Source of the DNA: a virus
Lineage: Duplodnaviria > Heunggongvirae > Uroviricota > Caudoviricetes
DNA: 64,000 bases
Virus record (IMG/VR): IMGVR_UViG_3300029516_000004
Coordinates: 31,480-95,479 of that record
Strand: one strand, 5' to 3'
Every line of letters starts with the position of its first letter. Within the stretch, counting starts at the first letter, position 1. Below are positions 2,522-64,000 of the stretch, piece by piece. The notes under the pieces were generated by a model. The model made no database searches. It worked only from the letters and a program-made list of their open reading frames with translations, and had not been told where the DNA came from. Position numbers and translations under genes: made by a program.

Positions 2522-4006
2522 TTATTCATTAAGCCATGCCAGAGCTTCATCAACCTGCGCTTCGTCTTCGACGCTAAGCACTTCATCTTGGGGAACATAG
2601 TTCGCCAACATAGCGAAACAATATGTATCCCAATGGTCCGGTGAGTGCAGGTTGAGTTTTTTCTTCATATCTTCCTTTGACATCACCTTCCATTGACCTG
2701 CGGAATTTATCCCTACCGGTATCTTTGATGCTTCCTCTATAGTCGCAGCCCCCTTATCAAGCCGCATACGCCCTGATTTTACAGCTTCTGCCGCCTGAAT
2801 ATTCGCGAAAGCGCGCATATCGAAATAAAGGCTTTTATCTTCACGGCTGTGCATCTTTTTACCCCAGCGGATACGCTGGACGGTAATACCATAGCGTTCG
2901 TACATCAGATCAGCCGTCGATTTCCCCAAGCCATCGCCATCAATAGCTATGGTTATGTTCGGGAACCGTTCTGGGTTACATTCTGCGAAAATCTTGGCGG
3001 CTAACTGCGTTTCTGTAACGTCTGTGTATTCCAGCATACGATAGTTGATTACACGGCGTTTATTTCGCTGGCCGGACACCATCATGATATTAATAACGGA
3101 CTTATCTCGTCCTGCGCCACCAGCAACGTCAACACATGCAACCCAGCCCCATCCTTTGGCAATCTTGACCTTTCGCCGCGTCGCCCGCTCAACCTCATCA
3201 CGACCAAGAAGAAAGCCATCTTGAGATTTGGGAAATTCACCACGTACTTTAATCATATACATGGGGTTATCACGACCGCCATACTCCGCAAGTTTTGCTC
3301 GTATAAATTTTGCATCTACAAGCGGAGATTCTTCACTATTCAGTATTATCGCAGTAAACAATCCATCAGGATTTCCCGGGCGAATAGCTAGTCTGTGGTG
3401 TGAATCGTAGAAATAGCCTGAAGGTCGCGTAGGCTGGGAAAGAAGCAGAATACGGTTATCCTTACCGGTCAGCGCACCTGTTATCACACTGAATGCTTTA
3501 TCACTCACACCCGACGCTTCGTCGATGATATACAAGAGATGATCGGCGTGTTCACCAGCCAACGCCTCCTCATTTCCGGGGCGACAGGACTTTATCAATA
3601 TTGTCCAAACACCCTTGCCAGTCACCTCAAAAAAAGACGTTTCTGTAAGAATGAAATACTTCGACAACCACGGGAATCTGCTAACAGCAGTAGCCCAATT
3701 GCTCTTTATGTATTTGAAAATACCATCAAGGACTTGCTGTCTTTTGTTAGCGACCAGAATAACGCGAGCGCCGGGGAAAAACATGATGAAGAGTATTGCA
3801 ATGATACTCGTCATATCCGACTTACCAGTACCATGGCCGGAGGTCACACTTGTCCAACTGCCGTCCTGCTGCGTGGACTCAATGATCTCATCCTGCTGCC
3901 AGGTTGGTGTCTTCCCAAACAACACATCAGCGGCCGCAATCCAGTCATAACGATATAGCGCCACCAGCTCGCGCCAACGTGGGTCCGTTACGCAACTTCT
4001 GGCCAT
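2522..4006 (-). CDS. pacB: PacB terminase large subunit (494 aa)
   Basis: 494 aa, start overlaps pacA stop; synteny pacA-pacB-c1. Confidence 0.85.
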
Positions 4007-5199
4007 TAATCATCATCCCCGTACAGTTTGCGGGTAACTTCTTCGTCTTCCTCCTCGTCTTCGTCCAGATCCTGTTCAAGCCATGCTTCGTTTGATATGC
4101 CTTCCGCATCGACATCACCATAACCACCTGTATCGACGATATCGGCAATTTCTTCTCTACGATGCTCAATCCACAATGCGGCATCAGCGCGGCGGCTGGC
4201 GGCCCGTTCTCGCGCGATTTTATCCAGATCTTCAAGTGATGGAGCGCCAGATGCTGTTTGGTTTTCCTCGTCATCGGTATTGGTCTTAGGAGCACGCAGA
4301 TCGGCTTTGATTTGCTCCAGCATCAGGGGCGGCACTTTCCCTCCATGCGCCTCGATGAATTCAGCTGCTTCCAGCACTGACCAGTTATTTTCACGCTTTC
4401 GTTCGTATGCCAGCTTAACAATGCCAGCTTGCCCCATAGATAAAGCGTGCTTTTCCGCCTCCCGGCTTTCTTTTCGATAGTTATTCCGGATGCTGTAAAT
4501 GGTGTTGATCAGGCTGCTTATCTGCGCGGAACAGCTGTTTAGCATGCTCGCGATACGGTATTCAGGCGGAGTACCTTCATCATCGTCTTTTTGCTGATCG
4601 CGCATTTCCTGCACCAGGCGAATACACGTATCCCTGGCGTTCTCCAGCATAAGGAGATGAGAAAGAGACTTTTCAAGAAGAGTGGTTTCCAGAACATCGG
4701 CCCCGGACCGACGCAACATAGCGCGCGCGGCCTTCCGTGCTTCAACGTTATCTATCAGGTAATCGCCAGCTTCGAATTCAAAGCGTTCACCATCATCATC
4801 CAGGGTGTCGCGTTCCAGGCGATCACGTAAGGTACGGTGGGCGCGAGTGATCACGTCATGATCATCAGAACGATCATTTATGCGCTTATTTTGGCGCTTA
4901 GCGTTCTCGACTGCGGCACTGACAACAGCATTAACTCTTTGTTTTTCAGCCATTTCAGCCACAATGTGATCACCTGCACGTTGATCATTAGCGTGATCAA
5001 TGATCATGCTTTTTAGTGGTTTCCTGACAGGCTTATTTGGCTTACGACTGTCCGCTGTTCCGGTGTCTTCTTTGAATGCACGGAGATAACGACGTGCGGT
5101 GTTTGGGTTGAGATTAAACTCGGCGGCATATTGTGCGATGGTGTAACCACCATCTCGCGCCAGGCGAGCAAAATTCTTCTTGTGATCGTCCCAGGTCAC
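4006..5199 (-). CDS. pacA: PacA terminase subunit (397 aa), contains pac site
   Basis: 397 aa; the GATC-hexamer pac site lies in its 5' coding region. Confidence 0.85.
4821..5008. other. pac: pac packaging site with clustered TGATCA/G hexamers
   Basis: Two clusters of four Dam-site hexamers each (around 4821-4876 and 4965-5006) flanking a central segment, inside pacA. Confidence 0.75.
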
Positions 5200-5285
5200 T
5201 TATGCTTCCTTTCGTATAAAACTCTTTTTGACGCGAGGGTAACGAAAGTCACATGTCAAAAGGCCCGGAACGGGCAAGCAATCAA

Positions 5286-5738
5286 TCAGATACGTGCGGA
5301 TGTAGCATTACCGTAATGACGGTGCTGACGGGCCACCTTATTGAAAAGTTGACGCGCCATTACCCAAGGCTGGTGCTCCCGGCGTTCCTTTTCGTCCTGC
5401 GTCATATAGAGTTCGTTCTGGAGTTTTTCATCAAACCGGCGCGGAGCGCGGCTACGGCGAAAGAATTCAGGATTCAGAGAGTGGATCTGAAATCTACGTG
5501 GGCGTGTACTGTCATCAATCAAAACAGACGAATACTTAGACACAGCGATAGCCTTTAAGCGCAGATAAACATCGCGCTTATCGACATCCAGATGCGGGTA
5601 TTCCTTTTCAAGAATTGCTGCGAGTTCTTTCGCTGATAGAAGAGATTTAGTGCGGATCATGTAATCCGCAATCTCGTACGATGTTATTCGTGAGTGATTT
5701 ATTTCCATGAAGTGGCGTCCCTGCCAGTTAAGTAACAT
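5286..5738 (-). CDS. lpa: Lpa late promoter activator (150 aa)
   Basis: 150-aa ORF immediately upstream of pacA with operator-like site upstream; matches P1 gene 10 position and size. Confidence 0.7.
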   Translation of the reverse strand: MLLNWQGRHFMEINHSRITSYEIADYMIRTKSLLSAKELAAILEKEYPHLDVDKRDVYLRLKAIAVSKYSSVLIDDSTRPRRFQIHSLNPEFFRRSRAPRRFDEKLQNELYMTQDEKERREHQPWVMARQLFNKVARQHRHYGNATSARI

Positions 5739-36343: not shown

Positions 36344-36565
36344 TTATCCACATTATCCACTGGATAGATCCAATAATTAGGTCCATACAGATCCCTATTA
36401 GATCCATATAGATCCCTGATCGTTGCAGGCCGCGCCACGTCTGGCTTAGAAGTGTATCGCGATGTGTGCTGGAGGGAAAACGATGTGTGCTGGAGGGATA
36501 AAAATGTGTGCTGACGGGTTGCTAATGTGTGCTGGCGGGATATAGGATGTGTGCTGACGGGAAAG
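36344..36565. other. oriR: plasmid origin oriR: tandem DnaA boxes, GATC cluster, five 19-bp RepA iterons (incC)
   Basis: TTATCCACA and TTATCCACT (36344-36361); five GATC in 36367-36418; iterons GATGTGTGCTGGAGGGAAA-like x5 (36459-36565). Confidence 0.85.
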
Positions 36566-37482: not shown

Positions 37483-37760
37483 TGTGTGCTGGAGGGCAGC
37501 TGCATTTGAAAAATGTGCGCTGCCGGGAATGCCTGCCCATTTTCCTGTTTTTGGTGTGCGCTGGAGGGTTGCGCCACGCAGTTTGCCCAGACATTCCCTC
37601 CAGCACACATCTAACCATCCAAGTTTCCCTCCAGCGCACATCTAATCTTCTATCTTTCCCTCCAGCACACATATTTGATACCAGCGATCCCTCCACAGCA
37701 CATAATTCAATGCGACTTCCCTCTATCGCACATTCTGGTCATGCATCATCCCTCCAGCAC
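37483..37760. repeat. incA: incA iteron array (RepA-binding copy-number control)
   Basis: Multiple TGTGTGCTGGAGGG-type iterons in both orientations downstream of repA. Confidence 0.8.
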
Positions 37761-54032: not shown

Positions 54033-54914
54033 ATGCTTTTACCCCTTTTCCCGCTACCATCGCGGCCAACTGAATTGATCCAGTTCCGTCAGCCAAATAT
54101 TGCTGATGCGATGCGTTTCAACTCGATAACACCGGAGGAACAAGAACAACAGACAACGGCGTATTTAAAAGCCTTGCTGGCTGAACCCGCGAAACATGAT
54201 CCCCTGACATGGACGGCGCAGGACCGGATTACCGCGTTATGGTGGATATTTACCGGCTCCCGTGAAACACCGGTCGAGACATTCACCTACACCTGTAAAC
54301 ATTGCGGTAAAGAGCATTATTACGATTGCGATATGAATGCTCTGGCTGAAGATATCCAGGTCCTGGAAGTGGAACCGTTCATTGACGATATTGAGGTGCC
54401 TGTAGAGGGAGTACCTTATCAATGGCGTATCGTGCCGCTTGATGGTTGGGCAATGGAAATGCTGGAGATGCGCCGTGCAGCATTGCCACCTGAAGACGAC
54501 GCGGAATTCAAAGAAGCGATCGTTGATTTGCGTTTTTGGGAATTCGCTTATCAGTGTGAGCTTTATAACGATGTTAGTGGTACTCGTGAAGATCAGGCTG
54601 AGCGTCGTTATGAAACGATTAAACGGATGGCCATTGATACTGAATTTATGAAGCTGGCGGCACACATCCGACTGGCTCATGAAAAGCTCGAACATGGTTT
54701 ACCGTGCTACATCGATAAAGGTGAAATGCGTCTTCGTCTCCCGCCGCATAAATGCCCAAATCAGGATAAAAAGGAGTCCACAGAGGGTGCATATACCCGT
54801 CTGTGGGTGCCCTTTCGGGCTACCGACTTCATTCCACAGGTGGGGATTGAAAAGCTATCAGACCTTAGTGTCCAACCTGGTTTTGTATGGGGGTATACCG
54901 ATTCAGGACGCTGA
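54033..54914 (+). CDS. putative virion morphogenesis protein (293 aa)
   Basis: ORF in late operon immediately upstream of sit. Confidence 0.55.
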   Translation: MLLPLFPLPSRPTELIQFRQPNIADAMRFNSITPEEQEQQTTAYLKALLAEPAKHDPLTWTAQDRITALWWIFTGSRETPVETFTYTCKHCGKEHYYDCDMNALAEDIQVLEVEPFIDDIEVPVEGVPYQWRIVPLDGWAMEMLEMRRAALPPEDDAEFKEAIVDLRFWEFAYQCELYNDVSGTREDQAERRYETIKRMAIDTEFMKLAAHIRLAHEKLEHGLPCYIDKGEMRLRLPPHKCPNQDKKESTEGAYTRLWVPFRATDFIPQVGIEKLSDLSVQPGFVWGYTDSGR

Positions 54915-54995
54915 AAGGCTTACTGAATCCTATGCGTTTTTCCTGTTGGAGAAACTGGAAGAAAAACTTAAACCGAAACGGTAGGCGATAAGATC

Positions 54996-57900
54996 ATGGA
55001 AAGAAAAAACGCCAATATTGACGATGTTATAAGGACAGTTGAAACCGCCAGCGCGAAAGAGCTGGAAGAGCTTGCAGGTATTCGGGAAGCTGTTGAAGAT
55101 TTGAAAGGGGAACGCGTTGCAACTGTTGACCCAGTATCTCGCAGTGTGTCGGCATTAAATCGCACAATCGAAAATTCACGTCCTGACTTTGTGACCAATG
55201 CGCCATCAGTGGACCCTATTGTTGACGCAATAAAACGGCTTAATTTAGGGGACGTTTCTCGTATACGGGAGGACAAAGTCACTAACCGTGAACAGCAGGC
55301 TGCACCAACAGCGCACAATCCCCCAAATAGACGAAGAGAGGCAATAACAGAGGATGTTAAAGCACAGCGGTTAGAAACGGTCAAACTCGCTCGTGATTTG
55401 AAAGGGGAACGCGTTGCAACGGTTGACCCAGTATCTCGCAGTGTGTCGGCATTAAATCGAACAATCGAAAATTCCCGGCCAGACTTTGTGGCCAATGCGC
55501 CATCAGTAGACCCTATTGTTGACGCAATGAAACGGCTTAATTTAGGGGACGTTTCTCGTATAGTTCAGGAGGGCATTGCTCAACAGGAACAGCAGGTCAA
55601 ATCAACTACACCAAAGGGTAAAAAACGACGCAGGAAGGCTATACCAGAGGATATAAAGGCGCAACGGACCGAAGCAGCCGAACACGCTCGCGAAATGTTC
55701 GATCAAAAAGGCGGTGCGCAAAAAAGCCAAAACCAACGCGATGCGCGTGGTCGTTTTATTGGAAAGTCAGGGAGTAAGGCCGCAGCGGAAGATGCCCGTG
55801 CTGAACGTGCTGAAAGGGCCAGGCGCAAAGAGGATGATGAGCGTCTAAATGCTGAATCAGGTTTATTAAAAAAACTGTCAAAAGTAGCTGAAGGCATAGG
55901 TAACCCTTCAGAGACTCGTGCCGTCGATGCGTTAGGTTATGCCGTTGCTGGTCCATTGTGGGCAGCAGGGAAGGAGCTTGGCGGGATATCAAAAGAAGTT
56001 GGTGGATCGCTTAATGGTGCCAGAAAGTCTATTGCCGATGTGATTCGTGGCAATGACGATAACAGCCGTAGAAAAGGTTTTTTTAGGCGTAAATCGCAAA
56101 ATAGTGCCGATGTCGTTCAGGTTAACACCCAAAAACGGACGGTTCAGGAACTTCAGGAGCAGACCAGCGAAATTAAAGAGGGCAATGACAAGATTCTCAG
56201 CGCCCTTGATCAGATAGCCAAAAACACCGGGAAAAAGAAGGGCGGCTTGCTGTCCAAACTATTTAGCCTGTTAGGGAAGGGGGCCGGTGGCGTCGCGTCG
56301 TTGTTAATGGGGCGTGGCATGCTGAAAAAAGCTGGAGCACTCGCTTTTGGCGCTCTGGGGGCAAAGAAACTTGTAGGAATGCTACGCGGTGGTGGCAAGA
56401 AGACTATCGCCCATGAAGGTGGAGATTTGGCTGCCCGGGCAGCAGGTAAACTTGGATTAAAGGCAGTTGGTAAAGGGGCGTTACGCGCAATTCCCTTAGT
56501 CGGCACAGTGGCTGGAGGTATTTATGATGCGGTAACCGGTTGGAATGATACAGAAGCGCAACGTCGAGCGTTTGGGCTTAAATCAGGACAAGATCCATCA
56601 TTCCAGCAAAAAGCCGCTTATACGTTAGCCAATGTTCTTGATATGGGGGGACTGGTATCTGGTATTAGCAGCGCCATTGGTGAGGTTCTCAAATCACTTG
56701 GATTTGAGGATATCGGCAATATGTTGCAATCATTTTCGACGGAAAGTATTGCCCAGGCCATTGATAGTGGGATTACCAACTTAGAAACATATATTTCTAA
56801 CCTTGGCGACACCATTTCTACCAAGTTCGAAGATTACACAGCAAAGATTGGTGATGCTGTTTCAGCATGGTTTAGCGATACATCTAATAAGCTGCTTGAA
56901 AAGCTGGATGCCATCAAAGACTTCTTTACTGTTGATAACCTGAAACAGGTTTTCAGTGATGCAATTGATAGTGCAATTGATTTCATTAAGAACCCAGGGA
57001 AACACATTAAAGAGGCGGCTGGTAATATTTGGGATGGGGTTAAAAATTTACCTGGTAAAGCATTAGATGCAGCGGTTGATGCCGTTAAAAATACCCCTGC
57101 GGCAATGATTGTATCAAAAATACCCAATCCGATCGGCGAAGCTAATGCGAAAGAAATCACTCCAGAGTTAAAAGCTCCGGTTAATAGCCACCAGGAGACA
57201 TCTGATTCTAAAACTGAATCCGATGCCAAACAGACTAATATTGTTACCCGCGTGATAAATGCGGCACTGGACTCGGCGAAAGATAGCAATAAAACAGTTA
57301 AAGAAACTGCGAATCAGATTATCAATGCAAATGCCGTAGAAACGGGCAATAGCGCGTTGCAGAAAATTGATAAAGCTATTGGTCAAAATAGCTCGTCATC
57401 ATCGTCGCTTAATACCACTGGCACCAGGAATGACATTCAGAAAGCTGCGGATACCTACAACAATGGCCGCTTGGATGTAAAAGTCGGAAGTCTTGGATCT
57501 GAAGGTAAGGCAAATCTCGATAAGTTGGCTCCGTATTTTGCTGAACTAGAGAATAAATATGGTCTTCCAGAAGGCACTCTTTACGCGATTGCTGCAACTG
57601 AATCTGGTGGTAATCCGTATGCAAAATCCCAAACCGGTGCTCTGGGAATGTTTCAGTTCACGGGGATTGCTCGTGAAGAGACTGGCTTAGCTGAAGGTGA
57701 ATCGTTTGATCCTGTGAAATCGGCAGAAGCTGCGGCTCTTCTCATGAGCAAGTATCTGAAGCAAGCCAATGGAGACTTAAACGAGGCCATCACTGCATAT
57801 AACGCTGGGTTTGGCACTATCAATAAGTGGAAAAAAGGCACAGGTGACTTATCGAAAGAAAACCGTGAGTACGCGATCAAGGTCAATACTCATCGTGCTC

Positions 57901-58685
57901 GCTATTTAGGTGGTGAAATCTATACACCTGGAGCAGGAGCACAGGGTGGGGCGCAATATGGAGTGAGGGGACCACTGCCTGATAACGCTGTTATCGATCA
58001 GTCTACTGGCCTGGCGTTTACCCCTGGTGATAGCCCGTTTGAGAAAGGCGGTCTGGTAGACAAAATCGGCAATGCTGTTGGCGTTAACGATCTGGTCAAC
58101 AAATTCATGAATGGCCGGGGTATGCGTCGGGAAGTCGTTCAGGGAACGCTCGAAGAACGTGCACGAGGGAAGGGGACCGCAACAGCAGCTGGCAATGTGT
58201 ATGTTGATACTCCGATGCCAGTTGAAGAGGCGCGTCCGGTGGCCAGCAACTCAAGTTACTTTGACCAACTCGGCGCACAAATGGGGATTGATGGACTATT
58301 CGATAAACTCCGCAACTCGCCGGGGATGCGGAAAAATAATGCGACTGAACCAGCCTCCACGTCCAAGGTGACGACTGCCGCCAACGATTTGCAGCAACCA
58401 ACCGGTCGTATGCAGATAGACGGGCAGGTTATTAGTGACCTTGGCGGTTCCGGTGCCAAGCCGACAATGCAGTTGGCTGATAATACCGTTTCACTTGATG
58501 GTGAAACGAAGCGGCTGTTTGCGCAGATGACCTCATTGCTTGCCAGGATTGAAGAGCACACCAAAGACTCGGCGAAAGGCCAGGGAACTGTCGTAAAGGT
58601 CAGCACGCCTCAGCCGGGCGTTATGCGCACGGTACCACTGTCAATTGATGATCCGTTGATGAATGACTACGCGAGAGTTGATTGA
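54996..58685 (+). CDS. sit: Sit-like injection/tape-measure protein with lytic transglycosylase domain (1229 aa)
   Basis: SLT motifs AIAATESGGNPYAKSQTGALGMFQF; long Gly/Ala-rich and coiled segments; internal in-frame duplication. Confidence 0.85.
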   Translation: MERKNANIDDVIRTVETASAKELEELAGIREAVEDLKGERVATVDPVSRSVSALNRTIENSRPDFVTNAPSVDPIVDAIKRLNLGDVSRIREDKVTNREQQAAPTAHNPPNRRREAITEDVKAQRLETVKLARDLKGERVATVDPVSRSVSALNRTIENSRPDFVANAPSVDPIVDAMKRLNLGDVSRIVQEGIAQQEQQVKSTTPKGKKRRRKAIPEDIKAQRTEAAEHAREMFDQKGGAQKSQNQRDARGRFIGKSGSKAAAEDARAERAERARRKEDDERLNAESGLLKKLSKVAEGIGNPSETRAVDALGYAVAGPLWAAGKELGGISKEVGGSLNGARKSIADVIRGNDDNSRRKGFFRRKSQNSADVVQVNTQKRTVQELQEQTSEIKEGNDKILSALDQIAKNTGKKKGGLLSKLFSLLGKGAGGVASLLMGRGMLKKAGALAFGALGAKKLVGMLRGGGKKTIAHEGGDLAARAAGKLGLKAVGKGALRAIPLVGTVAGGIYDAVTGWNDTEAQRRAFGLKSGQDPSFQQKAAYTLANVLDMGGLVSGISSAIGEVLKSLGFEDIGNMLQSFSTESIAQAIDSGITNLETYISNLGDTISTKFEDYTAKIGDAVSAWFSDTSNKLLEKLDAIKDFFTVDNLKQVFSDAIDSAIDFIKNPGKHIKEAAGNIWDGVKNLPGKALDAAVDAVKNTPAAMIVSKIPNPIGEANAKEITPELKAPVNSHQETSDSKTESDAKQTNIVTRVINAALDSAKDSNKTVKETANQIINANAVETGNSALQKIDKAIGQNSSSSSSLNTTGTRNDIQKAADTYNNGRLDVKVGSLGSEGKANLDKLAPYFAELENKYGLPEGTLYAIAATESGGNPYAKSQTGALGMFQFTGIAREETGLAEGESFDPVKSAEAAALLMSKYLKQANGDLNEAITAYNAGFGTINKWKKGTGDLSKENREYAIKVNTHRARYLGGEIYTPGAGAQGGAQYGVRGPLPDNAVIDQSTGLAFTPGDSPFEKGGLVDKIGNAVGVNDLVNKFMNGRGMRREVVQGTLEERARGKGTATAAGNVYVDTPMPVEEARPVASNSSYFDQLGAQMGIDGLFDKLRNSPGMRKNNATEPASTSKVTTAANDLQQPTGRMQIDGQVISDLGGSGAKPTMQLADNTVSLDGETKRLFAQMTSLLARIEEHTKDSAKGQGTVVKVSTPQPGVMRTVPLSIDDPLMNDYARVD
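55098..55564 (+). repeat. in-frame direct duplication inside sit (about 170 bp repeated at 297-bp spacing)
   Basis: 55098-55267 nearly identical to 55395-55564; both encode GERVATVDPVSRSVSALNRTIENSRPDFV(T/A)NAPSVDPIVDA(I/M)KRLNLGDVSRI. Confidence 0.9.
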
Positions 58686-61831: not shown

Positions 61832-64000
61832 ATGAATGACGTTACAGTTGTCACATCGGTTACTTACCCATCACCCGAGTCGTTGGCTCTGGTGGCTGAT
61901 GTGCAATACCACGAACCATATCTGTCAGCCGCGCTAAACCGAAAATTCAGGGGGATTGTTGACCCGGGATTTTATGCCGGTTTCTTACCTAAGCCTGGCG
62001 GTGGGATGAACCTGTTAATCACCTCAGTGGATGGTGATAAAACCGCAGGCGCGGCGTCGGTGGATATTGGTGAATTCTACCAGGTAACTATTCAGCAACG
62101 TAAGGATATTTCTCTTGCACTTAGTGCAGGCAAGAAATATGCAATTGTGCTGAAGGGAAGATACCTCCTTGGAGAAGATACCTATCAGGTGAATACCGCG
62201 TCACATATTCATGCGGCTGAATTTGTTTCCAGAACCTATACCGATTCATATCAGTTAGGAGATGGGGAGCTGCTTGTTTGTACGGTGAATATCCCTGCTG
62301 GTGTATCTGCCATTACCCAGGAGATGATTGATACATCCAAGCGTATCAACCGCACGATCGGCATTGATATTTCAGACTCTGTAACCAGTACCAGAAGTGA
62401 TGTTGCTGCGAGTTCGCTGGCAGTTAAAAAAGCCTACGATCTGGCTAAAAGCAAGTATACGGCGCAGGATGCAAGCACAACACAAAAGGGATTAGTTCAG
62501 CTCAGTAGCGCAACTAACAGCGACAGCGAAACAATGGCGGCTACCCCTAAAGCCGTTAAGTCGGTAAAAGAGCTGGCTGATACCAAAGCGCCAATAGAAA
62601 GCCCGAGTCTGACAGGAACGCCAACCGCGCCGACGGCAGCGCAAGGTACAAACAGCACGCAGATCGCAAATACAGCCTTTGTTAAGGCAGCTATAACGGC
62701 ACTTATCAACGGTGCACCTGGCACACTGGATACGCTTAAAGAAATAGCTGCTGCGATCAATAACGACCCGAATTTCAGCACAACTATCAACAATGCTCTG
62801 GCTCTTAAAGCTCCTTTAGCAAGTCCTGCATTAACGGGAATACCTACTGCGCCTACCGCTGCACAGGGTACGAATAACACGCAGATTGCTACGACCGCTT
62901 ATGTAAGAGCTGCTATCTCTGCATTGGTCGGCTCATCACCTGAAGCTCTTGATACTCTGAATGAGCTTGCAGCAGCACTGGGCAATGACCCGAACTTTGC
63001 GACAACAATGACAAATGCGCTGGCAGGCAAACAGCCTCTGGATGCAACTTTAACCGCGCTCGCTGCCCTTGCGACTGGTGCAAACAAACTGCCTTATTTC
63101 ACTGGTAAGGATACGGTAGCGCAGACTGATTTAACGTCAGTCGGTCGCGATATTCTGGCTAAAACAAGCACACTGGCCGTTATCCAATACCTTGGTTTAA
63201 GTGAACTCGGTACCAGCGGTGAAAAGATCCCCCTGTTGAGCACGGCTAACACATGGAGTGCGCGCCAGACTTTCAACGGCGGGATCACCGGGGCGCTGAC
63301 AGGGAACGCCGACACCGCGACGAAATTGAAAACAGCACGCACGATTGGCGGTGTGGCATTTGATGGCTCCGCCAATATCAACCTGCCGGGTGTAAACATT
63401 GCTGGTAACCAGAACACCACGGGGAATGCTGCTACCGCGACAAAACTTGCGACGGCAAGAAACATCAACGGTGTTAAGTTTGATGGCTCAGGCGATATCA
63501 ACATTAATACATTGGTATCTCGTGGCCGAGTTACGGCGTTAAGCGGCTCTACTCAAGGCACTGCTGGCATTCAAATGTACGAGGCGTACAACAATAGCTA
63601 CCCGACCACGTATGGCAACGTATTGCACATGAAAGGTGCGAGTGCTGCTGGTGAGGGCGAGTTGCTTATTGGCTGGAGTGGTACGAGCGGTGCACATGCG
63701 CCAGTTTTCATTCGCTCCCGAAGAGATAACACAGATGCGGCATGGTCAGCGTGGGCGCAGGTATATACATCAAGGGACTCCATTCCTGGTGTGAATGCCA
63801 CTGGCAATCAGAATACAACTGGCAATGCAGCAACCGCTACAAAACTACAGACGGCAAGAACTATCGGCGGAGTTAGCTTTGATGGTACTGCGAATATTAA
63901 TTTACCTGGTGTTAACGTTGCGGGTAACCAGAACACCACGGGGAATGCTGCTACCGCGACAAAACTTGCGACGGCAAGAAACATCAACGGTGTTAAGTTT
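61832..64000 (+). CDS. S: tail fibre protein S, 5' portion (ORF runs off window end)
   Basis: Manual translation MNDVTVVTSVTYPSPESLALVADVQYHEPYL... with repeated motifs TAPTAAQGTNNTQIA and NQNTTGNAATATKL; open to 64000; includes perfect 78-bp direct repeat (63404-63481 and 63923-64000). Confidence 0.8.
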   Translation, partial: MNDVTVVTSVTYPSPESLALVADVQYHEPYLSAALNRKFRGIVDPGFYAGFLPKPGGGMNLLITSVDGDKTAGAASVDIGEFYQVTIQQRKDISLALSAGKKYAIVLKGRYLLGEDTYQVNTASHIHAAEFVSRTYTDSYQLGDGELLVCTVNIPAGVSAITQEMIDTSKRINRTIGIDISDSVTSTRSDVAASSLAVKKAYDLAKSKYTAQDASTTQKGLVQLSSATNSDSETMAATPKAVKSVKELADTKAPIESPSLTGTPTAPTAAQGTNSTQIANTAFVKAAITALINGAPGTLDTLKEIAAAINNDPNFSTTINNALALKAPLASPALTGIPTAPTAAQGTNNTQIATTAYVRAAISALVGSSPEALDTLNELAAALGNDPNFATTMTNALAGKQPLDATLTALAALATGANKLPYFTGKDTVAQTDLTSVGRDILAKTSTLAVIQYLGLSELGTSGEKIPLLSTANTWSARQTFNGGITGALTGNADTATKLKTARTIGGVAFDGSANINLPGVNIAGNQNTTGNAATATKLATARNINGVKFDGSGDININTLVSRGRVTALSGSTQGTAGIQMYEAYNNSYPTTYGNVLHMKGASAAGEGELLIGWSGTSGAHAPVFIRSRRDNTDAAWSAWAQVYTSRDSIPGVNATGNQNTTGNAATATKLQTARTIGGVSFDGTANINLPGVNVAGNQNTTGNAATATKLATARNINGVKF

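What the first reader, a model, noticed from the sequence alone, without database searches (positions are those of the whole stretch)
55098..55564. In-frame direct duplication inside the Sit injection/transglycosylase gene
A roughly 170-bp block is repeated at exactly 297 bp (99 codons) spacing near the 5' end of sit, duplicating a 55-residue peptide segment. Such duplications in tape-measure or injection proteins change protein length and can arise or collapse by homologous recombination. The antisense spurious ORF 54968-55495 reflects the same repeat.
Basis: seen in the sequence. Interest (0 to 1): 0.4.

Follow-up and report, generated by a model that had tools for sequence, protein, structure and literature searches.

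The report
Copy-number-variable repeat in P1 tape-measure gene
The tail "tape-measure" gene (sit) of this P1-like phage-plasmid carries two in-frame tandem copies of a 99-codon module that relatives carry one, two or three times, so natural variants probably differ in tail length; this is real but an ordinary kind of variation for such genes.

Summary
The remaining 129 bp, the "tail", is also duplicated but only about 60% identical.

It is not a fresh event in this genome. P1, P7 and SJ46 have one copy. About 40% of sit-carrying complete E. coli genome records and 29% of PLSDB plasmids have two copies, and about 2% have three.

Synonymous divergence is 0.15 between heads and 1.16 between tails, against 0.04 for flanking sit versus P1. 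The extra unit is therefore an old paralogue or an import from an unsampled lineage, and the heads have been partly homogenised.

Chimeric head haplotypes show that unequal recombination in the head made three-copy alleles at least twice, and probably collapsed two-copy alleles to one. Two- and three-copy ORFs are intact, and the two-copy phage phi456 forms plaques.

The antisense ORF is a by-product of the repeat. Each extra copy should add about 4-5 tail rings; this is inferred and untested.

The parts
54996..58685 (+). sit: tape-measure / injection transglycosylase gene, intact 1229-aa ORF
   Evidence: ORF list and translation. It is 96-97.6% nt identical to sit of P1, P7 and JL22, with pmgB-sit-pmgA-bplA synteny.
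55098..55394 (+). Repeat copy 1 (99 codons, Sit residues 35-133)
   Evidence: This copy is absent from P1, P7 and SJ46.
55098..55265 (+). Head of copy 1 (H1, 56 codons); carries the H1 signature 81A/84T/87T/97A (Thr33)
   Evidence: Haplotype table. In this window the 5' 60 nt of H1 is H2-like, which is a conversion mark.
55266..55394 (+). Tail type 1 (T1, 43 codons), found only in two- and three-copy alleles
   Evidence: Megablast census. dS against T2 is 1.16.
55395..55691 (+). Repeat copy 2 (99 codons, residues 134-232); its tail is the orthologue of the single unit of P1/P7
   Evidence: T2 is 93% identical to the P1 tail.
55395..55562 (+). Head of copy 2 (H2); has a private 5' motif at positions 14-39
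55563..55691 (+). Tail type 2 (T2), contains the basic KGKKRRRK patch
57534..57863 (+). SLT lytic transglycosylase domain of Sit (aa 847-956)
   Evidence: Pfam PF01464, E = 9.9e-27.
54968..55495 (-). Antisense ORF (175 aa); spurious, a stop-free frame of the repeat unit
   Evidence: The stop-free length grows by exactly 99 codons per repeat copy. No promoter-like site was found. It is not annotated in P1 or P7.
54033..54914 (+). pmgB, the upstream neighbour (proposed tape-measure chaperone)
   Evidence: PHROG 1854. The chaperone proposal is in PMC9024508.
58685..59041 (+). pmgA, the downstream neighbour; its start overlaps the sit stop codon (TGATG)

Best explanation
The window is a P1-like (Punavirus) phage-plasmid. 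Its tape-measure gene sit carries the two-copy allele of a 99-codon module whose copy number (1, 2 or 3) is polymorphic among P1-like elements.

Each module has two parts. The first is a 168-bp head that stays similar enough between copies (95%) to serve as a substrate for unequal homologous recombination and gene conversion. The second is a 129-bp tail that has diverged too far (~60%) to recombine.

Unequal exchange between heads adds a unit (giving H1-T1-H2/H1-T1-H2-T2) or removes one. Removal always leaves tail type 2, which explains why no one-copy allele with tail type 1 is seen.

The extra unit is not a recent duplicate of the resident one. It is an old paralogue, or was brought in from an unsampled Sit lineage, and has since spread by recombination onto several sit backgrounds.

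Shown here: the anatomy, the allele frequencies, the age contrast, the recombinant haplotypes, and the intact ORFs.

Inferred: Sit is the P1 tail ruler, so each extra 99 residues should lengthen the tail by about 15-18 nm. That is 4-5 of the 40-Å rings, on a 53-ring P1 tail.
For: Anatomy.

One copy in P1, P7 and SJ46; two in phi456. Three copies in pEC12-3, pXH987-OQX, pEC11-AU-EG2, pEC2_5, p211899A and phage 813R1.

Census:
- 472 records of complete E. coli genomes carry the sit 5' region. 198 carry tail type 1, at 207 places, so 9 records have three copies.
- In PLSDB, 479 records carry sit. 137 carry tail type 1, at 145 places.
- In IMG/VR, 60 loci have one copy and 18 have two.

Age: dS is 0.15 for H1/H2 and 1.16 for T1/T2, against 0.037 for the adjacent 600 nt of sit versus P1. 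T1 is at least 99% identical in 193 of 198 records.

Recombination:
- The 5' part of H1 ranges from single-copy-like (L022-24) to H2-like (this window).
- The middle head of three-copy alleles is all H2-like in one group. In the other it is H2-like up to position ~104 and H1-like from position 114. That implies two independent expansions.
- The one-copy alleles L030 and L081 are H1/H2 chimeras carrying T2.
- The two-copy module sits on several flank haplotypes and on both downstream cassette types.

Function:
- The ORF is intact at 1229 aa here, 1231 aa in phi456, and 1340 aa in three-copy alleles.
- phi456 makes plaques and myovirus particles (PMC10967188).
- Sit is assigned as the P1 tape measure (PMC9024508; PMC12810830).
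- The P1 tail has 53 rings with a 40-Å rise (PMC10304247).
- From established knowledge: tape-measure length sets tail length in lambda (Katsura & Hendrix 1984) and T4 (Abuladze et al. 1994). Both are listed as references in PMC13585406.
Against: No tail measurement exists for any two- or three-copy phage. The phi456 paper gives no tail length.

The repeat starts at residue 35. This is the head-proximal end of the protein, which in other tape measures can have assembly roles rather than pure ruler roles.

Sit was not resolved in the P1 cryo-EM maps, so its ruler role rests on argument.

P1's 2100-Å trunk needs 1.84 Å per residue over all 1140 aa. That is more than the 1.5 Å of an alpha helix, so the ruler arithmetic is not settled.

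No donor lineage for tail type 1 was found anywhere, so old paralogue versus import cannot be decided.

L081 shows that the H1 signature can occur on a one-copy allele. This could be ancestral polymorphism rather than a collapse.
Confidence: 0.78

Rival explanations
1. This is a recent, genome-specific duplication, possibly heterogeneous in the population, that arose in this element by replication slippage or unequal exchange.
For: Exact 297-bp register and a near-identical 168-bp head.
Against: The same two-copy allele, with T1 at least 99% identical, is present in about 190 complete E. coli genome records and in phage phi456. Tail dS is 1.16, about 30 times the background divergence from P1.
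Confidence: 0.03
2. The module is a real, segregating copy-number polymorphism, but it lies outside the length-measuring part of Sit. It could, for example, be a docking or chaperone-binding, terminator-contacting or DNA-contacting N-terminal module. Copy number would then be neutral or would tune something other than tail length.
For: The repeat begins at residue 35. The heads contain prolines and predicted helix breaks. The tails carry basic patches (KGKKRRRK / NRRRE). N-termini of tape measures have been linked to tail-head joining and termination control. Tail dN/dS is about 0.4, which suggests only a moderate sequence constraint.
Against: [quoted passage not shown] In lambda and T4, in-frame insertions and deletions in the tape measure change tail length proportionally (established knowledge).
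Confidence: 0.3
3. The high head similarity reflects a DNA- or RNA-level functional element inside the head, such as a binding site or structure, rather than gene conversion.
For: Synonymous sites are much more conserved in the heads than in the tails.
Against: Mosaic tracts that differ between sibling alleles are direct marks of exchange. Heads of one-copy alleles vary at synonymous sites as much as nearby sequence does: P1 vs P7 head dS is 0.12. No promoter-like site was found.
Confidence: 0.05
4. The antisense ORF 54968-55495 is a real gene whose product is lengthened by the repeat.
For: It is a 175-codon ORF.
Against: Its stop-free length is 77-99, 198 and 297 codons for one, two and three copies. 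That is a passive property of the unit. There is no promoter-like site. It is not annotated in curated P1 or P7. Its sequence is low-complexity and Ser/Thr/Arg-rich.
Confidence: 0.02

Closest known systems
Sit of phages P1 and P7 (putative tape measure with a C-terminal SLT lytic transglycosylase domain)
   Same: It is the orthologue: 96-97% nt identity, the same neighbours (pmgB upstream; pmgA and bplA downstream), and the same SLT domain.
   Different: P1 and P7 have one 99-residue unit, with tail type 2. The window has an additional upstream unit with a divergent tail type 1. sit is otherwise a mosaic of allelic cassettes.
Tandem unit duplication and loss in tape-measure proteins (Belcaid et al. 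2011; mycobacteriophage and lactococcal tape measures)
   Same: In-frame tandem units whose number varies among relatives and changes protein length.
   Different: Those units are short, in multiples of 11 aa with periodic Trp/Phe markers. This unit is 99 aa with a single aromatic residue (F31), and is present only 1-3 times near the N-terminus.
Engineered or selected in-frame deletions and duplications in lambda gpH and T4 gp29 that change tail length
   Same: The same predicted mechanism: ruler length sets the number of tube rings.
   Different: Those are laboratory mutants with measured tails. Here the variants are natural alleles at 30-40% frequency, and their tail lengths have not been measured.

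Membership tests
P1 Sit orthologue group (Punavirus tape measure / injection transglycosylase) | High sequence identity and conserved gene order pmgB-sit-pmgA-bplA | tested here: met
   95.9-97.6% nt identity over 96-97% of the gene to P1, P7 and JL22, with the same neighbours. PHROG 2533 matches along its full length.
P1 Sit orthologue group (Punavirus tape measure / injection transglycosylase) | SLT lytic transglycosylase domain in the C-terminal third | tested here: met
   PF01464, E = 9.9e-27, aa 847-956.
Tape-measure proteins (tail length rulers) | Long, mostly alpha-helical virion protein encoded between the tail tube/chaperone genes and the baseplate genes | tested here: met
   Gene position. 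The AlphaFold2 model of aa 1-350 is mostly helical but of low confidence, pLDDT 56. Sit was detected in virions and predicted helical (PMC9024508).
Tape-measure proteins (tail length rulers) | A change in protein length changes tail length proportionally | not testable with these tools
   This needs electron microscopy of one-, two- and three-copy variants. No measurement was found in the literature.
Tape-measure tandem-repeat class with 11-residue periodic aromatic markers (Belcaid et al. 2011) | Repeat units spaced in multiples of 11 aa and marked by conserved Trp/Phe | tested here: not met
   The unit is 99 aa (9 x 11) but contains only one aromatic residue, F31, and has no internal periodicity. 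The rest of Sit has no further copies: BLASTP E = 14.
Copy-number-variable tandem repeats maintained by unequal homologous recombination | Different copy numbers among close relatives, with recombinant (chimeric) junction units | tested here: met
   One-, two- and three-copy alleles exist. The middle units of three-copy alleles are H2/H1 chimeras with two different crossover points. The one-copy alleles L030 and L081 are chimeras.

The most novel reading that the evidence does not exclude
P1-like phage-plasmids may exist in nature as discrete tail-length morphs of about 53, 57-58 and 62 rings. These would be set by one, two or three copies of a 99-residue Sit module and interconverted by unequal recombination in the 168-bp head. 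The two-copy morph is held at 30-40% frequency, which could reflect selection (for example reach across different envelopes) rather than drift.
Probability: 0.3. Interest if true: 0.55.

Novelty: new member of a known kind. Interest (0 to 1): 0.38.

Why it matters
Sit is called the P1 tape measure only by argument: its size, its predicted helicity and its presence in virions. It was not resolved in the recent cryo-EM maps. Natural, viable alleles that differ by exactly 99 or 198 residues offer a ready-made test: count tail rings in P1 (one copy), phi456 or this element (two copies) and pEC2_5-type elements (three copies).

The polymorphism also matters for annotation and typing of P1-like phage-plasmids, which often carry resistance genes. 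A 297-bp repeat in sit can be collapsed or expanded by short-read assembly and can look like a frameshift or pseudogene.

Beyond that, it is an ordinary example of repeat-driven length variation in a tape-measure gene.

Tried and rejected
1. Word-indexed protein search with Sit aa 1-330 returned only 19 partial P1-family proteins and no distant relatives.

2. Scanning one genome per species (GTDB) gave only two further real loci. It also gave two tiny contigs, labelled Acinetobacter and a Bacillota MAG, with a 100% identical sit start; these are probably contamination.

3. An exhaustive HMMER search of 1.84 billion representative proteins with copy 1 found three proteins, all P1-family, so no donor lineage for tail type 1 could be identified.

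4. tblastn of copy 1 against phages and plasmids gave strictly bimodal identity, at least 95% or about 70%, with no intermediate lineage.

5. A single-sequence AlphaFold2 model of aa 1-350 had pLDDT 56, so no fold search was run.

6. PDB, Pfam and NCBIfam gave nothing for the N-terminal unit.

7. No further degenerate copies of the unit occur elsewhere in Sit.

8. The literature search found no description of the sit duplication and no tail length for phi456.

9. I considered and rejected assembly artefact, because the tails are divergent and the structure is identical in hundreds of finished records. I also rejected recent de novo duplication (dS) and a real antisense gene.

Full report
**Observation**

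The repeat is real and lies at the stated place. The repeat finder reports 55098-55299 and 55395-55596 (202 nt, 89% identity, spacing exactly 297). It is the strongest direct repeat in the whole window. Tandem Repeats Finder reports one array at 55098-55652 with period 297, 1.9 copies and score 808.

The repeat lies in a 1229-codon ORF, 54996-58685 on the + strand. The ORF carries an SLT lytic transglycosylase domain at residues 847-956 (Pfam E = 9.9e-27). It is 96-97.6% identical in DNA to sit of phages P1, P7, JL22 and RCS47, and has the same neighbours: pmgB upstream, pmgA and bplA downstream. The window is therefore a P1-like (Punavirus) phage-plasmid, and the gene is sit.

**Anatomy**

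Codon-by-codon comparison shows a head-to-tail duplication of a full 99-codon unit. Copy 1 is 55098-55394 (residues 35-133). Copy 2 is 55395-55691 (residues 134-232). Divergence between the copies is sharply bimodal:
- The first 56 codons (the "head", 168 nt) differ at 8 positions: 6 synonymous and 2 non-synonymous (Thr/Ala33, Ile/Met45).
- The last 43 codons (the "tail", 129 nt) are about 57% identical without gaps. A gapped global alignment gives 85 matches over 133 columns. At protein level 18 of 43 residues are identical, still clearly homologous (0 of 2000 shuffles reach the score).

The unit is 99 residues, not 55. No further copies exist elsewhere in Sit. No Pfam, NCBIfam or PDB entry covers the unit.

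**Relatives**

P1, P7 and SJ46 have one unit, with tail type 2. Window Sit is exactly P7 Sit (1130 aa) plus 99 residues. Phage phi456 has the same two units in an intact 1231-aa Sit.

Three units occur in plasmids pEC12-3, pXH987-OQX, pEC11-AU-EG2, pEC2_5 and p211899A_LBHALD, and in phage vB_EcoM-813R1. In pEC2_5 and p211899A_LBHALD the three-copy ORF is intact at 1340 aa (WP_250663835.1).

I used tail type 1 as a probe, because it does not cross-match tail type 2 in megablast. The census is:

| Collection | Records with sit 5' region | With tail type 1 (two or more copies) | With two tail-1 places (three copies) |
|---|---|---|---|
| Complete E. coli genomes | 472 | 198 (42%) | 9 |
| PLSDB plasmids | 479 | 137 (29%) | 8 |
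| IMG/VR (best 80 loci) | 80 | 18 two-copy, 60 one-copy | none |

That condition is not met.

**Age and origin**

Nei-Gojobori estimates are:

| Comparison | dS | dN |
|---|---|---|
| Head 1 vs head 2 | 0.15 | 0.016 |
| Tail 1 vs tail 2 | 1.16 | 0.46 |
| Adjacent 600 nt of sit, window vs P1 | 0.037 | 0.004 |

The extra unit is therefore far older than the divergence among sampled P1-like elements. It is not a recent duplicate of the resident unit. Yet tail type 1 itself is nearly invariant, at least 99% identical in 193 of 198 records. Tail type 2 varies more among lineages, with dS of 0.15-0.18.

A long branch combined with a recent coalescence fits either of two histories. One is import of the two-copy cassette from an unsampled Sit lineage. 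The other is an old paralogue that passed through a bottleneck.

I could not find a donor. tblastn identity to copy 1 is strictly bimodal, at least 95% or about 70%, in phages and plasmids. An exhaustive HMMER search of 1.84 billion representative proteins found only three P1-family proteins. This point stays open.

**Recombination**

The table of 43 distinct head haplotypes shows the following:
- H2 is uniform and has a private 5' motif at positions 14-39.
- H1 has a private 3' signature (81A, 84T, 87T, 97A).
- One-copy heads look like the H1 5' part joined to the H2 3' part.
- The 5' part of H1 ranges from fully single-copy-like (L022-L024), through intermediate (L010, phi456), to H2-like (this window, L016, L025). 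These are conversion tracts of different lengths.

In this window both copies carry such marks. H1 has lost the 18A/33T/36T/39C states. H2 has ATA (Ile) at codon 56, where most H2 have GTA (Val).

Three-copy alleles fall into two groups with different junctions:
- In pEC12-3 and pXH987-OQX, the middle head is H2-like through position 135.
- In pEC2_5, p211899A and pEC11-AU-EG2, it is H2-like up to about position 104 and H1-like from position 114.

That is at least two independent expansions by unequal exchange inside the head.

Two one-copy alleles are candidate collapse products. L030 has an H1-like 5' part and an H2-like 3' part with tail 2. L081 has the H1 signature with an SJ46-like tail 2. 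L081 could instead reflect ancestral polymorphism.

Because exchange can only occur in the heads, a collapse always leaves tail type 2. This matches the absence of one-copy alleles with tail type 1.

The two-copy module occurs on several flank haplotypes and with both downstream cassette types, so it has moved among sit backgrounds. sit as a whole is a mosaic of allelic cassettes.

**Function**

Sit is the protein currently assigned as the P1 tape measure. It is virion-associated, 1140 aa long, predicted helical over its N-terminal two-thirds, and carries a C-terminal SLT domain (PMC9024508). The recent cryo-EM work labels it TMP but could not resolve it. It also reports that the TMP is ejected on contraction (PMC12810830).

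The P1 tail trunk is 53 rings with a 40-Å rise, 2100 Å in total (PMC10304247). The extra length per copy can be estimated two ways:
- At 1.5 Å per helical residue, 99 residues add 149 Å, or 3.7 rings.
- At P1's empirical 1.84 Å per residue, they add 182 Å, or 4.6 rings.

I therefore predict about 4-5 extra rings per copy. This rests on the established behaviour of lambda gpH and T4 gp29, cited as Katsura & Hendrix 1984 and Abuladze 1994 in PMC13585406. It is inference and was not tested.

The two-copy protein is compatible with infectious particles, because phi456 forms plaques and myovirus particles (PMC10967188). No tail length is given there.

A single-sequence AlphaFold2 model of residues 1-350 has low confidence (pLDDT 56). 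It predicts helices broken at the proline-containing and basic segments of each unit.

The main rival is that this N-terminal module is a docking or termination-control element rather than part of the ruler, so that copy number does not change tail length. I give this about 0.3.

**Antisense ORF**

The longest stop-free run in that antisense frame is 77-99 codons in one-copy alleles, 198 in two-copy alleles and 297 in a three-copy allele. No promoter-like site was found. Curated P1 and P7 records annotate nothing there.

**Comparison with known systems, and verdict**

Tandem-unit gain and loss in tape-measure genes is a known phenomenon (Belcaid et al. 2011, cited). This case does not belong to the class with 11-residue aromatic periodicity, because the unit has one aromatic residue in 99. 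It works like a classical copy-number-variable repeat maintained by unequal recombination.

I found no paper describing this sit polymorphism. I rate it a new member of a known kind, of modest interest. Its value is mainly that natural, viable one-, two- and three-copy alleles make the ruler role of Sit directly testable. It also matters because the repeat can confuse assembly and annotation of P1-like phage-plasmids.

Noticed in passing
window 56293-56468, 56969-57269, 57569-57739, 57939-58420: sit is a mosaic of allelic cassettes. In the first two stretches the window matches P1/P7 (97-100%) but is only 52-64% identical to SJ46/phi456 in the most divergent blocks. In 57569-57739 it matches P7/phi456 while P1 has a 30-nt indel and 78% identity. 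In 57939-58420 it is closest to P7/phi456.
   Followed up: partly
L006 3835-3989 and L008 3538-3692; single copy in the window at 57136-57186: A second in-frame length polymorphism in sit. A 51-bp (17-aa, GEANAKEITPELKAPVN) unit is present three times in tandem in pEC12-3 and pXH987-OQX, and once in the window, P1 and P7.
   Followed up: partly
L007 (pEC11-AU-EG2), about 3050-5450: An IS100 (istA/istB) insertion interrupts the third repeat unit of a three-copy sit, so that element has a disrupted tape-measure gene.
   Followed up: no
P0020 (1009 aa, from the representative protein library): This is a chimeric protein. It starts in the end of tail type 1, runs through copy 2 and about 120 further Sit residues, and then continues into an unrelated ~800-aa sequence. 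It is presumably a rearranged P1-like element.
   Followed up: no
window 63299-63481 and 63818-64000: A 183-nt direct repeat at 81% identity, spaced 519 bp apart, lies at the window end. The region matches P1-family tail-fibre (S / long tail fibre) genes near the Cin inversion site.
   Followed up: partly
window 36461-36562 and 37594-37672: Short tandem arrays: 21 bp x 4.8 (GATGTGTGCTGGCGGGATATA) and 31 bp x 2.5. They look like plasmid-replicon iterons, but this was not verified.
   Followed up: no
L092 (Acinetobacter idrijaensis, 337-bp contig) and L093 (Bacillota MAG, 2.9-kb contig): Tiny contigs in non-enterobacterial assemblies carry a 100% identical start of sit. Contamination is more likely than true hosts.
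   Followed up: no
L004 (phage vB_EcoM-673R5) and L009 (phage vB_EcoM-813R1): In these deposited phage genomes sit is broken into several small ORFs by frameshifts, including 1-nt shifts inside the repeat (unit spacing 296 instead of 297). Sequencing errors are likely, but this was not resolved.
   Followed up: no
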